Source: Fimbriosthenelais zetlandica
Taxonomy: Eukaryota
Assembly (NCBI GenBank): GCA_977030845.1
Contig: OZ365118.1
Span: forward strand, 14,694,001 to 14,758,000
DNA length: 64,000 bases
Direction: 5' to 3'
Positions 9,001 to 15,000 of this stretch are shown here, one piece after another. Made by a program: the position numbers. The first letter of the stretch is position 1. Every line of letters starts with the position of its first letter.

Positions 9001-12000
9001 AAAAAAAAAGAAGAAAATGTTATATTAACTAAAGCATAGGAAGAGATTTTAATAAGCATTGTTAAAAAAAATTTCTGACCTTCGCACATTTCATTTGTTG
9101 TATCATATAGAAAACCTGCTGAACATGCGCACATATAGCTTCCTTCCGTATCAAGGCACGAGCTGCCACCTGAACACAGAGAAGTGTCCCCAATACACTC
9201 ATCTACGTCTGAAATAAAATCACTTTTATTTGGATTGTTCGTACTGAAGTATATAACTTCAAATACATACCGGGACCCCCTGCCCCCTGCCAATTACCTA
9301 GGTGTAAACCTGGAACACAGGTTTTACCTACGTGTAAAGGACTATTAAAATTATTGCTGATCTGTCACATATTTTTTGCAGATCTGTTACAGATCCGCCA
9401 CAGATCTATCCCTTATCTGTCACAGATCTGTCTGAACTGTCACATATCTATTGCCGATCTGTCACATATCTATTGCCGATCTGTCACAGATCTATTCCTG
9501 ATGATGATTTGTCACAGTTTTGTTGCTGCATTGTTGCTGATTTGTCACAGCTTTTTTGCTGCATTGTTGCTGATTTGTCACATATCTGTCGCTCATCTGA
9601 TCTGTCGCAGATGTGTCACAGTGTCAATCCGTCATTTATGATTTACTCCTTCTTGTAATATGCACTTGAATCCTGGATTGTGGGGATTAGTTTGTATAAA
9701 ACGACCAACTGTCTAAAGTGACCACTTCACCCAAGGGTGGTCGCTTTATACGGGTTAACCGTTTGACTGTACTCACTTGCACAAACAGTTCCAACGTAGT
9801 CATAGCCAGGAGCACAATTACACGTGAATCCATTAACCTCATCCACACACGTACTTCCTTGTGGACACACGTCTGAATCACACTCGTCAATTTCTGCCAA
9901 GAAAAAGGAATGTCCATGTGCTTAATGTTTATGCATCTGTCAACGTGCATCCTACCTCCCACCAACCTTAATTGTTAAACCTTTATTAACTGCGACGAAT
10001 TGTTGTCAGACTCAGACTGTGTTGGGAGGAACTTTTTTTTTTATTTTCTATGATAGTGTCTACAAATGATAGTGTCTACAAATGACAACCTCTAGTTGTT
10101 GAAGTCTCTCAGCAATGACTAACCTTCACACTCTTGATCTCCTGTATTATATTCAAAACCTGCATCACACATACACATAAATCCAGGTTCCATATCCACA
10201 CACGTACTCCCATCCAGGCAAGGGGAAGGGGACTCATCACACTCATCTACATCTGGAATTTAATATAAATACACAATAATTAATCGGCATAATTATGTAC
10301 ACAGTTACGGCTGGTCGACCTGGTACCAGCATAATGTGACTGGGTGAGGTATCATATGTTATGTGCCTGCGACATGGTCAGTCCCAGAGCATTGTACTTA
10401 CTTTCACATGCGTTACTGTCACCATTGTATTCTAGTCCATCCACAGTACAGTCACAGGTGTAGCCATCGCTTGTCGTCATACAATCACTCTCATCTGGGC
10501 AACTGTCTGTCTCTGCCAGGCACTCGTCCGTCACTGTTCAAACATATGAGTCATTGGTCAGTTCATGGACAGGGTGAAGGATCGGGTAAGGGGTTGGGGT
10601 TGTCAGGGTGGCAAAGTATGCGGCAAAAGTGGGGAGGGTGCCCCAGACTTGATAGATGGGGAACCCCCCTCCCCTACCTTCCGTGTGGATCTTCCCCTTA
10701 AATTTAGGGAGATTTTAGGGGGCAAATTAGTCTTCGAGGTCACAGTTCATGATACACTTCTTTGCTAAGTCGACCTCCATATAGGCTACATGTGTAAAAC
10801 TTTTCGATATTATTAGGACGCATGAAAAGCCTTTACGTCTGATGAAAAATACTTTGATTATGTTATCTGCAGTACGAGTATTTCCCTTTCAATGATTGAA
10901 TGGCATATTAAATGTGGTCATTGGATGTAGAAGGATTGGATAATGTCTTACCTTCACATACATCATCCTGTGTATTGTATGTGTAACCTGGACTAGTACA
11001 TTCACACTCTTCATTGGTTGTATCATATTGATAACCTGCTTCACACATACACACAAATCCAGGATCCATATCCATACACGTACTGCCATCCAGGCACGGG
11101 GAAGGGGACTCATTACACTCATTTATATCTGAAATTTAATACAATACAATAATAAATTACTGACACAAGTAGGCACTATAAATTTATAAAACAGTCCCAC
11201 TTTAAGCGACCAACTCCTTATAGAGACCTTGTATAGAGCATTGTACTTACTTTCACATGCGTTACTGTCAGCATTGTATTCTAGTCCCACCACAGTACAG
11301 TCACATGTGTGGCCATCGCTTGTCGTCATACAATCACTGTCGTCTGGGCAATTGTCTGTCTCTGCCAGGCACTCGTCGGTCACTGTTCAAACATGAGTCA
11401 TTGGTCAGTTCATGGACAGGGTGAAGGATCCGGTATAGGGGGCTGGGGGTTTAGGGTCAGAGTGGTATAAGGTATGTGGAAAAAGGGAGTTGGGGCTGCA
11501 GCCTTTCTGGTCCAATAATTACTACATATCTTTGCAACAAAATATGCATCTTCCTGAAAGATCGGGAACCCCCCACCCCTACCTTCCTGTGGATCCGCCC
11601 CTTTCAATGATTGAATGGCATATTAAATGTGGTCATTGGATGTAAAAGGATTGGATGATGTCTTACCTTCACATACATCATCCTGTGTATTGTATGTGTA
11701 ACCTGGACTAGTACATTCACACTCATCATTGGTTGTATCATATTGATAACCTGTTTCACACATACACATAAATCCGGGGTCCATATCCATACACGTACTG
11801 CCATCCAGGCACGGGGAAGGGGACTCATTACACTCATTTATATCTGAAATTTAATACAATACAATAATAAATTACTGACACAAGTAGGCACTATAAATTT
11901 ATAAAACAGTCCCACTTTAAGCGACCAACTCCTTATAGAGACCTTGTATAGAGCATTGTACTTACTTTCACATGCGTTACTGTCAGCATTGTATTCTAGT

Positions 12001-15000
12001 CCGTCCACAGTACAGTCACAGGTGTGGCCATCGTTTATCGTCATACAATCACTCTCATCTGGGCAATTGTCTGTCTCTGCCAGGCACACGTCGGTCACTG
12101 TTCAAACATGAGTCATTGGTCAGTTCAGCGACCGATGAAGGATCGGGAAGAGGAGAGTGGTTAGGGTGAGGGTGGTAAGGTTTATGGCAAAAGGGGACGA
12201 GGCTCCAGAAATTAATATATATCTGTTTGACCAAAAATTGATTAATACTCCCACCCACCTCCTGTGGATCCACTGTGCTGGACAAACTAGTCTTTGAGGT
12301 AACTGTTCATGATACACCTCTTTGCTAAGTTTCCCTTCATATATATGCATGTGTAAGACGTATTTGTAAGACTTTTCAACTTATCAATTATTAGCAACAA
12401 TGCTGTAAAACCTATACTTTGATAATGTTAACTGAACTATGTTCCTTTCAATGTTTGAATGACATATTGGATGTGGTAATTGGATGTTGAAGGATTGGAT
12501 GATGTCTTACCTTGACAGCTATTGTCCGGTTCATGGTACATGTAACCTGCATTATCACATTCACACGTTGATGATTGTACCTCATCCACACACGTACTCT
12601 GCTCAGGGCAAGTGTTTGATGCACAGTCATCAATGTCTGAAAGTAAGGAGATCAAAGTTATTAATATATTCTTCTATATAAATGCCCCTCCTGAAGCAAG
12701 TGACATCCTGCATGAATTACTTGAACGTTGAAGCTAAATTATTTGTTTTATGAACAAGTTGCTTCATTGTTTGCGTTTTGGTAACACCTTCCATGAAGTT
12801 TATTTCTACTCACTTTGACATTCAGTACCATCGTATTCAAAGCCAGGGGGACAATCACATGTGAACTCATTCACCTGATCCACACACGTACTTCCGTCTG
12901 GACAGTTGTTTGAAAGACACTCGTTTATATCTGCCAACAAAAAGAAAAAGAAATACCCATATAATTAATGGTTATAATTTAAACCTATTGTGATGGAAAT
13001 AGTCAAAGTTTATAAATAGTGAAGTTTATTTCTACTCACTTTGACATTCAGTACCATCGTATTCAAAGCCAGGAGGACAATCACATGTGAAATCATTCAC
13101 CTGATCCACACACGTACTTCCGTCTGGACAGTCGTTTGAAAGACACTCGTTTATATCTGCCAACAAAAAGAAAAAGAAATACCCATAGAATTAATGGTTA
13201 TAATTTAAACCTATTGTGATGGAAATAGAATTAACTTCTAGTTTGTTATTATCAGTATTTCAAGTGAATCATTAAAAATGAATTATTATGGACTCTTCAC
13301 CTTATATTTATCTACCCAACCCAAAATTTGTAAAATTAATATTCGGCTTAAGTATATGACTATTTATGATATTGAATCATTGGAATTGTGTATTAATTTT
13401 TTTCTGATAATACCTGAATTCCCAATAAATCAATTGATGATGGTACCTAAATTCTTAATAAATATTATCTATCATCACGTAGTATCTGACCTATGGATCA
13501 TTTAACATTCGATTTTGTTACCTTCACAGGTTGTATCGGTGGACGGAGCATACCCATCAAGACATTCACATATCACAGTGCTTCCGTACAGTTTACAGAC
13601 GGAAGAGACGGTATCACAGTTGTTCTGCTCTACAGTACAGTCACTTACAGCTGAAGGTACGACATATTAACATTGCAACACTTGTTTTTGCAAAAATGAA
13701 GTTTCACCGAGAAAGTATTTCATTTTGCGCTATATTTCAATTATTTTTAAATCACATAAATTTATTGATAAATGCGCATGAAGTGATGATCGACTTACTT
13801 TCACAAGTGTCACTTGGCGATTCACCCTCAGCACAAACACAGAGGTACGTCCCACTGATGATATTAACGCATGTTTCATCTTCTGCGCATTCGTTATCAT
13901 AACTGTTTACACATTCGTCATACCCTGAAATGAATTACTGACTTATACAGCCTATATGCAGTCCCAAAAAATGTTTTAGTTTCGAAGAATTTATTGCTAA
14001 AAGCAATTGCCGTTTGCACAATGGGAAGCACTTTTTTCAGGGTTGGTGTAATAAATTTTGAAAGATTTTCGTAGCAAAAACAAAATGCCATATTTCTTCT
14101 TGAGAAGAAATGGCATAATTAACTGGTTTTATTACTTACTTAGGCAAGGCATTATTGCATTCTCTTGGTCGTTTCTGTAGCCCTCTGCGCAGACACATTC
14201 CAGAGTTCCAATCCTGTTCTCACATGTACCGGTACCTCCCTGACCACAGTAATCCACTGCCTGCTCAGCACAATAATCTATGGCAGTGTCACATGTAGCA
14301 CCCGTGTATCCTGCCTTACAAATACACCCATCCTCTATATGACAGTACAATCCATTATCACCACAGGCACACGTCTCACTGCATGTAGTTCCATACATGC
14401 CTGGTTGGCAGGCTGAAATTTATAATAGGAATTAGAAGTTAGATAATTAGGTCATATAATAATAATAATGGATACTTGATATGGAGGGAAACCTCACCAT
14501 GGAATATACCGTATGGTAAAATGAGCCTAACATTTGAAATGGATGATTATAAATAGGAAAGCCTTGGTACCATAACAATAAGTTTTGTTTTTTTATTGGC
14601 TAAAGGTACTAAAATAGAGAGAATTGCTTTTATTGGCAAAAGCCACTATAAAACAGAGGCTATCTTTTATTGGCTTTATTTTACTCTCGTTGGCAGGAGG
14701 CAGGAGGCCTTGTTTTTTATGGAAGGTACTGTAAACAGAGCCTTGATTTTTTATGGAAGGTACTGTAAAGCAGGGCCTTGATTTTATTTGTGGAATGTAC
14801 TGTAAGACAGAGCCTTGCTGTTATTAGTAGAAGGTTAAAAGTACAGGTCTGAGATTGATACTGACCTCTACAGGTTACACCATCCTCCTGTAATGTCATG
14901 AAGTCAGGACAGGAACACTGGAAACCAGGCTCTAATTCTGTACACGAGTCACAGGCTGCCGGTGAGTTGGTACATTCAGTAATATCTGATGATAGGGGAA

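What the first reader, a model, noticed from the sequence alone, without database searches (positions are those of the whole stretch)
10885..12126. Duplicated EGF exons differ more than their flanking introns
Between the two 715-bp units I count 13 nucleotide differences in 309 exonic nt (8 amino-acid changes). In contrast there are 0 differences in the 122-nt intron 11129-11250/11844-11965 and only 2 in about 219 alignable intronic nt overall. This is the reverse of the usual pattern and suggests diversifying selection on the modules and/or intron-biased gene conversion, as described for some tandem-repeat recognition proteins.
Basis: partly seen in the sequence, partly recalled or inferred. 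Interest (0 to 1): 0.65.

Follow-up and report, generated by a model that had tools for sequence, protein, structure and literature searches.

The report
Patchy gene conversion between duplicated EGF exons
Two neighbouring copies of an EGF exon pair in an animal membrane-protein gene share an identical intron because a short stretch was recently copied from one to the other, so this is ordinary repeat homogenisation and shows no fast-evolving exons.

Summary
The contrast is fragile.

- **The identical stretch ignores exon borders.** It runs 223 nt (11065-11287), reaching 64 nt into exon A and 37 nt into exon B.
- **Significance fails once clustering is kept.** Outside that stretch exon versus intron gives p=0.16, and a circular-shift test gives p=0.25.
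- **The whole unit shows the usual pattern.** Over all 715 nt, introns are 11.8% diverged and exons 4.2%.
- **There is no sign of protein-level selection.** dN/dS is 0.42, and synonymous sites carry the largest excess.
- **The copies have mixed histories.** With an older third unit, exon A and the intron group units 1 and 2. Exon B is equidistant in all three, and the next intron stretch leans towards units 0 and 1.

The best reading is nested gene-conversion patches of different ages in a tandem EGF array of a single-pass membrane protein. Selection that keeps exons different under conversion remains possible. Diversifying selection after a simple duplication is not supported. No reads, alleles or orthologues could be checked.

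The parts
10952..11128 (-). Exon A1: 177 nt, phase 1-1, an 8-cysteine EGF/cbEGF-type module
   Evidence: Splice borders and translation are. The identical-length copy A2 matches Pfam EGF. There are 5 differences from A2, all at 11010-11064.
11129..11250 (-). Middle intron of unit 1: 122 nt, GC 0.31
   Evidence: It has 0 of 122 differences from 11844-11965. It is only 55% alike to the corresponding intron of unit 0, so it is free to vary. Rfam finds nothing and there are no inverted repeats.
11251..11382 (-). Exon B1: 132 nt, phase 1-1, a six-cysteine EGF-like module
   Evidence: Borders are. There are 8 differences from B2, all at 11288-11373. The best Pfam hit is EGF_CA at 18.8 bits, below the cut-off of 27.
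11383..11666 (-). Long intron LI1 between units: 284 nt
   Evidence: The first 30 nt are identical in all three units. Identity to unit 2 is then 70-76%. LI1 lacks 185 nt that LI0 has.
11667..11843 (-). Exon A2
   Evidence: Borders are. Pfam PF00008 scores 27.7 bits. The best PDB match is the Notch1 EGF repeats at 1.2e-12.
11844..11965 (-). Middle intron of unit 2
   Evidence: It is identical to 11129-11250.
11966..12097 (-). Exon B2
   Evidence: Borders are. The PDB gives only weak EGF hits, E=0.082. The Atlas nearest clusters are EGF, score 0.91, a lead only.
10885..11412 (.). High-identity tract: 528 nt, 97.2% identical to 11600-12127
   Evidence: The left edge is an indel. At the right edge identity falls to about 76%.
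11065..11287 (.). Youngest patch: a 223-nt run with no difference from 11780-12002. It covers the intron, 64 nt of exon A and 37 nt of exon B
   Evidence: p=0.0037 under uniform placement, p=0.008 under an exon/intron two-rate model, and best-interval scan p=0.004.
10124..10533 (-). Older unit 0: exon A0 10124-10252 (six cysteines, no tail), a 149-nt intron, and exon B0 10402-10533
   Evidence: A0 is 85-86% identical to A1/A2, and B0 is 93-94% identical to B1 and B2.
10534..10951 (-). Long intron LI0. Its segment 10700-10884 is absent from LI1, and its last 67 nt are 97% identical to LI1
12511..12633 (-). Exon A3 (approximate upper end), a different EGF module. Its 56-nt tail and its downstream intron are homologous to those of A1/A2
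   Evidence: intron 60/67 identical, exon tail 40/56.

Best explanation
The two '715-bp units' are neighbours in an older tandem array. In transcription order on the minus strand the array reads A3 - B2 - A2 - B1 - A1 - B0 - A0. It sits inside a gene for a single-pass membrane protein with many EGF modules.

Their similarity is a patchwork left by repeated non-reciprocal exchange between units, either gene conversion or unequal crossing-over, at different times.
- An older event made about 528 nt alike. That stretch is now about 5% diverged (15 differences in 305 nt).
- A later, shorter event of at most 223 nt erased every difference across the middle intron and the adjoining ends of both exons.

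The exon differences lie in the older patches and the identical intron lies in the youngest patch. The exon-over-intron contrast therefore reflects patch age, and exons need not have evolved faster.

Shown here: the clustering, the run crossing exon borders, the incongruent relationships, and dN/dS below 1. Inferred: the order and number of events, and that they were conversions.
For: - **The run is too long for chance or for an exon/intron rate difference.** The longest difference-free run is 223 nt, 11065-11287, made of 122 intronic and 101 exonic nt. p=0.0037 under uniform placement and p=0.008 under an exon/intron two-rate model. Log-likelihoods are -68.2 uniform, -65.3 exon/intron and -59.8 change-point.
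- **Permutation agrees.** Of 94 variable sites in the three-copy alignment (10991-11412), 13 separate units 1 and 2. The longest concordant run is 61 sites, reached in 0 of 100000 permutations.
- **Outside the run the contrast fades.** Exon 13/208 against intron 2/97, p=0.16. Left shoulder 5/113 against 2/67, p=1. Right shoulder 8/95 against 0/30, p=0.20. The circular-shift test gives p=0.25.
- **Histories are incongruent.**
  - Exon A: units 1-2 96.2% against 85-86% to unit 0.
  - Middle intron: 100% against 55%.
  - Exon B: 93.9, 93.2 and 93.9%, a star.
  - The next 58 nt: units 0-1 81.6%, above units 1-2 at 76.5%.
- **Synonymous sites are as diverged as nonsynonymous ones.** pS 0.079, pN 0.035, and 0.009 for the intron.
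- **The tract sizes are ordinary.** Lengths of 223 and 528 nt fit published conversion tracts: means of about 100-120 bp, and about 500 bp for complex events (PMC12643279, introduction passages).
Against: - Everything rests on 15 differences in one assembly.
- The scan for the best interval is post hoc, although its p-value of 0.004 is scan-corrected.
- The exon-over-proximal-intron direction recurs at three other places in the array. A purely incidental placement of patches does not predict that.
- Older pairs have dN/dS of 0.85-1.33, so the modules are weakly constrained at best and could be under selection.
- No donor for the copy-specific exon states exists in the window.
- A tendency of differences to fall 1-3 nt apart (4 pairs against 1.45 expected, p=0.037, or 0.12 outside the run) is unexplained.
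Confidence: 0.6

Rival explanations
1. Conversion plus selection. Exchange between units homogenises the whole unit, but selection keeps, or favours, differences between the EGF modules. Islands of divergence, including linked synonymous sites, then persist in the exons while introns are wiped clean. This is the red/green opsin type of pattern.
For: - The exon-over-proximal-intron contrast appears four times:
  - units 1-2: 13/309 against 2/219;
  - the 226-nt duplicate: 3/117 against 1/92;
  - the A1/A3 tail: 16/56 against 7/67, p=0.019;
  - exon B in three copies: 12 variable sites in 132 nt against 0 in 46 nt, p=0.024.
- Pooled over the two young duplicates the counts are 16/426 against 3/311, p=0.0185.
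- dN/dS is about 1 in older pairs.
- All changes spare the cysteines.
- The model is described for opsins and RNASE1 (PMC3924837, passages) and for GOT1 paralogues (PMC3728101, passages).
Against: - The identical run reaches 64 and 37 nt into the exons.
- Clustering-aware tests are not significant.
- No dN/dS is significantly above 1.
- The 46 nt flanking exon B carry the splice signals and may simply be constrained.
- The four contrasts are small and partly share copies.
Confidence: 0.22
2. A recent simple 715-nt tandem duplication followed by positive diversifying selection that sped up amino-acid change in both exons.
For: There are 8 amino-acid changes in 103 codons, all in loops between cysteines. 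The naive Fisher test gives p=0.031.
Against: - dN/dS is 0.42. Synonymous sites are the most diverged class (pS 0.079 against 0.009 for the intron, p=0.017), and nonsynonymous sites against the intron give p=0.11.
- The remaining 187 nt of the unit are 24-30% diverged with indels. The duplication is therefore not recent and not uniform.
- Exon B is as far from B0 as B1 is from B2.
Confidence: 0.04
3. Assembly or polishing artefact. The identical stretch, or some of the differences, come from mis-assignment of reads between near-identical repeats or from haplotypes mixed in the consensus.
For: Near-identical tandem copies are where consensus polishing is least reliable (general knowledge).
Against: - There is no N or gap in the window.
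- Both copies keep intact frames and canonical splice sites.
- The units differ by large indels and 24-30% divergence in their long introns. They are therefore not two alleles placed in tandem.
Confidence: 0.08
4. Chance plus mutation-rate heterogeneity. The exons are more G+C-rich and CpG-rich than the introns, so they mutate faster.
For: GC is 0.41 in exon A and 0.50 in exon B, against 0.31 in the middle intron. CpG counts are 2 and 6 against 1.
Against: Only 2 of the 15 differences are CpG-type transitions. The 223-nt run is not explained by an exon/intron rate difference (p=0.008).
Confidence: 0.06

Closest known systems
Primate red/green (LW/MW) opsin paralogues and colobine RNASE1 duplicates (PMC3924837, passages read)
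   Same: These are tandem paralogous sequences whose introns are kept nearly identical by gene conversion while exons carry fixed differences, so divergence peaks in an exon.
   Different: In those cases the peak sits on known function-changing substitutions and is backed by cross-species trees. Here the copies are exon pairs inside one gene, no orthologues are available, the identical run crosses the exon borders, and dN/dS is 0.42.
Iterated, homogenised introns in spider MaSp2 silk genes (PMC9779670, passages read)
   Same: An intragenic array of repeated exon/intron units, including two-exon, two-intron units, with nearly identical introns ascribed to unequal crossing-over or conversion.
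   Different: In MaSp2 the coding repeats are homogenised too and there are many copies. Here only two to three units exist and the exons keep differences.
Islands of divergence between GOT1 paralogues of Tigriopus under gene conversion (PMC3728101, passages read), and domain-wise recombination in MHC class I (PMC3434948, passages read)
   Same: Identity between paralogues is a mosaic with breakpoints, detected by GENECONV-type tests. Different segments have different histories.
   Different: Those studies use several populations or species. This is a single sequence with 15 informative differences.
Tandem EGF/cbEGF arrays of Notch, fibrillin and LDL-receptor type, built from phase 1-1 exons (the phase class is recalled; the PDB matches are)
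   Same: There is one EGF module per symmetrical phase 1-1 exon, so exon duplication keeps the reading frame. Exon A matches Notch1 EGF repeats (1.2e-12).
   Different: No orthology to any named gene was established. A1 and A2 carry an extra two-cysteine tail. Exon B fails the Pfam cut-offs.

Membership tests
EGF-like domain (Pfam PF00008 / PF07645), exon A | Profile match above the curated cut-off | tested here: met
   A2 scores 27.7 bits on PF00008 against a cut-off of 21.5. Its EGF_CA score of 25.5 is below the cut-off of 27. A0 scores 33.3 on EGF_CA, above 27.
EGF-like domain, exon B | Profile match above the curated cut-off | tested here: not met
   The best hits are EGF_CA at 18.8 bits (B1) and 21.2 bits (B0) against a cut-off of 27, and EGF_3 at 15.9 bits (B2) against 28.5. 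In the PDB the best match is E=0.082 to an EGF pair.
EGF-like domain, exon B | Six cysteines with the C-x-C spacing of EGF modules (the pattern is recalled) | tested here: met
   All six cysteines are invariant in B0, B1 and B2, and the fourth and fifth are one residue apart. The Atlas nearest clusters are EGF at 0.91 with 154 shared features, a lead only.
EGF-like domain, exon B | EGF fold | tested here: inconclusive
   The AlphaFold2 model built from three sequences has mean pLDDT 53.6 and pTM 0.31, with two short hairpins. That is too weak for a fold search, so none was run.
Gene conversion / concerted evolution between tandem copies | A run of identity longer than permutation of the variable sites allows | tested here: met
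   The 223-nt run gives p=0.0037, or p=0.004 scan-corrected. The run of 61 concordant variable sites is reached in 0 of 100000 permutations.
Gene conversion / concerted evolution between tandem copies | Adjacent segments give incongruent relationships among three or more copies | tested here: met
   Exon A and the middle intron group units 1 and 2. Exon B is a star. The stretch 11413-11598 leans towards units 0 and 1.
Gene conversion / concerted evolution between tandem copies | Donor and recipient polarised by an orthologue or outgroup | not testable with these tools
Diversifying (positive) selection on the modules | dN/dS above 1 | tested here: not met
   Units 1 against 2: 0.42 overall, 0.33 for exon A and 0.52 for exon B. 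Older pairs give 0.85-1.33, none significantly different from 1.
Diversifying (positive) selection on the modules | The excess over neutral (intron) divergence is confined to nonsynonymous sites | tested here: not met
   pS is 0.079 against 0.009 for the intron, p=0.017. Nonsynonymous sites against the intron give p=0.11.
Selection-maintained divergence island under conversion (opsin type) | Across species, exons group by copy while introns group by species | not testable with these tools
   This needs orthologous arrays, and none could be fetched.

The most novel reading that the evidence does not exclude
The tandem EGF modules of this surface protein are actively kept different. Exchange between units keeps wiping the introns clean, while selection rejects conversions that would make the modules alike. 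The array would then be a small, intragenic analogue of the opsin/MHC 'divergence island' situation in an invertebrate-type receptor.

The evidence does not exclude this. The exon-over-proximal-intron contrast appears at four places in the array, and older module pairs have dN/dS near 1.
Probability: 0.22. Interest if true: 0.5.

Novelty: new member of a known kind. Interest (0 to 1): 0.25.

Why it matters
This is mainly a caution. In tandem exon arrays, counting differences in exons against the alignable part of introns can mimic fast-evolving exons when the real cause is patches of different age left by gene conversion.

If selection does keep the modules apart, the locus would be a compact case for studying how repeat proteins diversify modules under concerted evolution. 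One genome cannot show that.

Tried and rejected
- **Conserved RNA in the identical intron.** Rfam at gathering thresholds found 0 matches in the whole window.
- **RNA pairing between introns, as in mutually exclusive exon clusters.** There are 0 inverted repeats of 14 nt or more in 10400-12700.
- **CpG hypermutation.** Only 2 of the 15 differences are CpG-type.
- **Micro-conversion from a donor inside the window.** Of 8 words (13-16 nt) spanning the clustered differences, 2 recur, both in B0. The other 6 occur only once. Donors elsewhere in the genome could not be searched.
- **Fold of exon B.** The model was too uncertain (pLDDT 53.6), so no fold search was run.
- **PDB search with the BAR-domain exon.** It found nothing.
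- **Tandem Repeats Finder.** It cannot show the 715-nt period because its longest period is 500. The period came from shared 14-mers (362 at offset 715).
- **EGF-specific literature.** A search on EGF exon duplication plus conversion returned 11 papers with 7 listed. Judging by their titles and abstract openings, none was on point.

Not used:
- The genome collection holds only bacteria and archaea.
- No orthologue, allele or second genomic copy was examined, and the organism is not identified.
- Supplementary files of the papers were not consulted.
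Full report
**What is there**

The window has no N and about 38% G+C.

I do not take the window for human. A phosphatase-methylesterase exon at 1835-2041 (+) matches human PME-1 over 63 residues but is only about 70% identical. That figure is my own count from the alignment printed. The EGF gene also has introns of only 122-418 nt.

Every Pfam, PDB, Atlas and fold query was a single exon or a single stop-to-stop frame.

The finding lies in a minus-strand gene. It has about twenty cysteine-rich EGF-type exons between about 7660 and 16700 and a hydrophobic, transmembrane-like exon at 7406-7549. 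The gene therefore probably encodes a single-pass membrane protein with a multi-EGF ectodomain.

**The observation**

At an ungapped offset of 715 nt, 10885-11412 matches 11600-12127. That is 528 nt with 15 differences.

The exons are A1 10952-11128, B1 11251-11382, A2 11667-11843 and B2 11966-12097. All are phase 1-1 with canonical AG/GT borders.

Fisher gives p=0.031 two-sided.

Exon A is an EGF by Pfam, and its best PDB match is the Notch1 EGF repeats. Exon B has six invariant cysteines but only sub-threshold profile hits. An Atlas lead points to EGF clusters, and the fold model is too uncertain to use.

**Why the contrast is weaker than it looks**

- *The intron count is selective.* The 219 intronic nt are only the part that aligns without gaps. 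The other 187 nt of each unit align at 70-76% with indels. Over the whole unit, introns are 11.8% diverged (43/365, plus 40 gap columns) and exons 4.2%. That is p=0.0004 in the usual direction.
- *The differences are clustered.* The longest difference-free run is 223 nt, 11065-11287. It covers the intron, 64 nt of exon A and 37 nt of exon B.
- *An exon/intron rate difference does not explain the run.* p=0.0037 under uniform placement and p=0.008 under an exon/intron two-rate model. A change-point model fits better: lnL -59.8 against -65.3, with a scan-corrected p of 0.004.
- *Outside the run the contrast is not significant.* Exon 13/208 against intron 2/97 gives p=0.16.
- *A clustering-aware test is not significant.* Shifting the difference pattern circularly gives 13 or more exonic hits in 130 of 528 shifts.

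**Selection**

By the Nei-Gojobori method, dN/dS is 0.42 (exon A 0.33, exon B 0.52).

Synonymous sites are the most diverged class. pS is 0.079 against 0.009 for the intron (p=0.017), and nonsynonymous sites against the intron give p=0.11. Faster amino-acid evolution after a recent duplication therefore cannot be the cause.

Only 2 of the 15 differences are CpG-type.

**History**

A third, older unit supplies an outgroup: A0 10124-10252 and B0 10402-10533. Relationships change along the unit:

| Segment | Units 1-2 | Units 0-1 | Units 0-2 |
|---|---|---|---|
| Exon A (shared 131 nt) | 96.2% | 86.3% | 84.7% |
| Middle intron | 100% | 55.4% | 55.4% |
| Exon B | 93.9% | 93.2% | 93.9% |
| 30 nt after exon B | 100% | 100% | 100% |
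| 11413-11470 | 76.5% | 81.6% | 72.9% |

A Sawyer-type permutation covers 94 variable sites, 13 of which separate units 1 and 2. The longest concordant run is 61 sites, and 0 of 100000 permutations reach it.

Intron LI1 lacks 185 nt of LI0 (10700-10884), bounded by a short CCCTT repeat. Beyond that gap homology resumes at 44/50 identical.

The units are thus old, and their likeness is a patchwork.
- The simplest account has an older exchange over about 528 nt, now about 5% diverged. The left part has 7/180 differences and the right part 8/125, p=0.42.
- A younger exchange of at most 223 nt lies in the middle.
- These sizes fit published conversion tracts (PMC12643279, introduction passages).

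The same direction appears elsewhere in the array.
- *The 226-nt tandem duplicate* (12794-13002 against 13020-13228): 3/117 exonic against 1/92 intronic, p=0.63. Pooled with the main pair, p=0.0185.
- *The tail of A1/A2 against A3*: 16/56 exonic against 7/67 in the adjoining intron, p=0.019.
- *Exon B in three copies*: 12 variable sites in 132 nt against 0 in its 46 flanking nt, p=0.024. Those flanks hold the splice signals.

Older module pairs have dN/dS of 0.85-1.33, none significant.

A model in which conversion homogenises the unit while selection preserves exon differences is described for opsins and RNASE1 (PMC3924837, passages) and for GOT1 (PMC3728101, passages). That model would also raise linked synonymous divergence, so it is not excluded. 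I give it about 0.2.

**Comparison with known cases**

The pattern is a known kind. Precedents are mosaic identity between tandem paralogues through conversion and homogenised iterated introns in repeat genes (PMC9779670, passages).

For each of these papers I read only the passages found by term search. I saw no supplements.

**Verdict**

The feature is real and the counts are correct.

The organism is not identified.

Noticed in passing
10952-11007 and 11667-11722 (the tails of exons A1 and A2), compared with 12511-12566 and 10124-10252: A1 and A2 are 8-cysteine exons that look chimeric. The body matches the six-cysteine exon A0. The 56-nt tail matches the tail of exon A3 (40/56), together with A3's downstream intron (60/67). 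The tail is also an internal repeat of the preceding 45 nt (33 of 50 aligned columns identical, reached by 0 of 2000 shuffles). This may mark the junction of the original unit duplication inside an exon.
   Followed up: partly
10885-10951, 11600-11666, 12444-12510: A 67-nt donor-side intron segment is 90-97% identical in three successive long introns. The adjoining exon tails are only 71% alike between A1/A2 and A3. The reason is unknown. It could be a constrained intron element or homogenisation that stops at the exon.
   Followed up: partly
12794-13228: A second young tandem duplication, period 226 and 98% identical, contains one 117-nt cbEGF exon per copy (12814-12930 and 13040-13156). It has 4 differences: 3 exonic (2 amino-acid changes) and 1 intronic.
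   Followed up: yes
10700-10884: A 185-nt piece of long intron LI0, also present in LI2 (84% identity over 64 nt, 10720-10783 against 12280-12343), is missing from LI1. A short CCCTT repeat sits at both edges, which suggests deletion by microhomology.
   Followed up: partly
11061/11064, 11288/11289, 11319/11322, 11339/11342: Exonic differences tend to come in pairs 1-3 nt apart. There are 4 such pairs against 1.45 expected, p=0.037, or 0.12 if the identical run is excluded. Three of the pairs hit the same codon position of neighbouring codons.
   Followed up: partly
7406-7549 (-) and 14135-14419 (-): Two further exons of the same gene. One is a transmembrane-like hydrophobic exon. The other is a 14-cysteine exon with sub-threshold teneurin-type EGF matches.
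   Followed up: no
about 600-3400 (+); 46926-47492 (-); 48630-61435 (+): Neighbouring genes:
- a protein phosphatase methylesterase-1 orthologue (PDB 3c5v, 5.8e-24);
- a NOA36 family gene (Pfam, up to 8.3e-26);
- a gene with a BAR_3 exon and a RhoGAP exon. The pairing resembles GRAF/oligophrenin-type RhoGAPs, but that name is recalled and was not tested.
   Followed up: partly
29405-29624; 39728-39999; 18364-18411 and 25044-25096; 62001-64000: A 36-nt minisatellite (6.1 copies, 96%), a 51-nt repeat (5.3 copies), two long C-rich runs, and the most G+C-rich stretch of the window (0.50) at its end.
   Followed up: no
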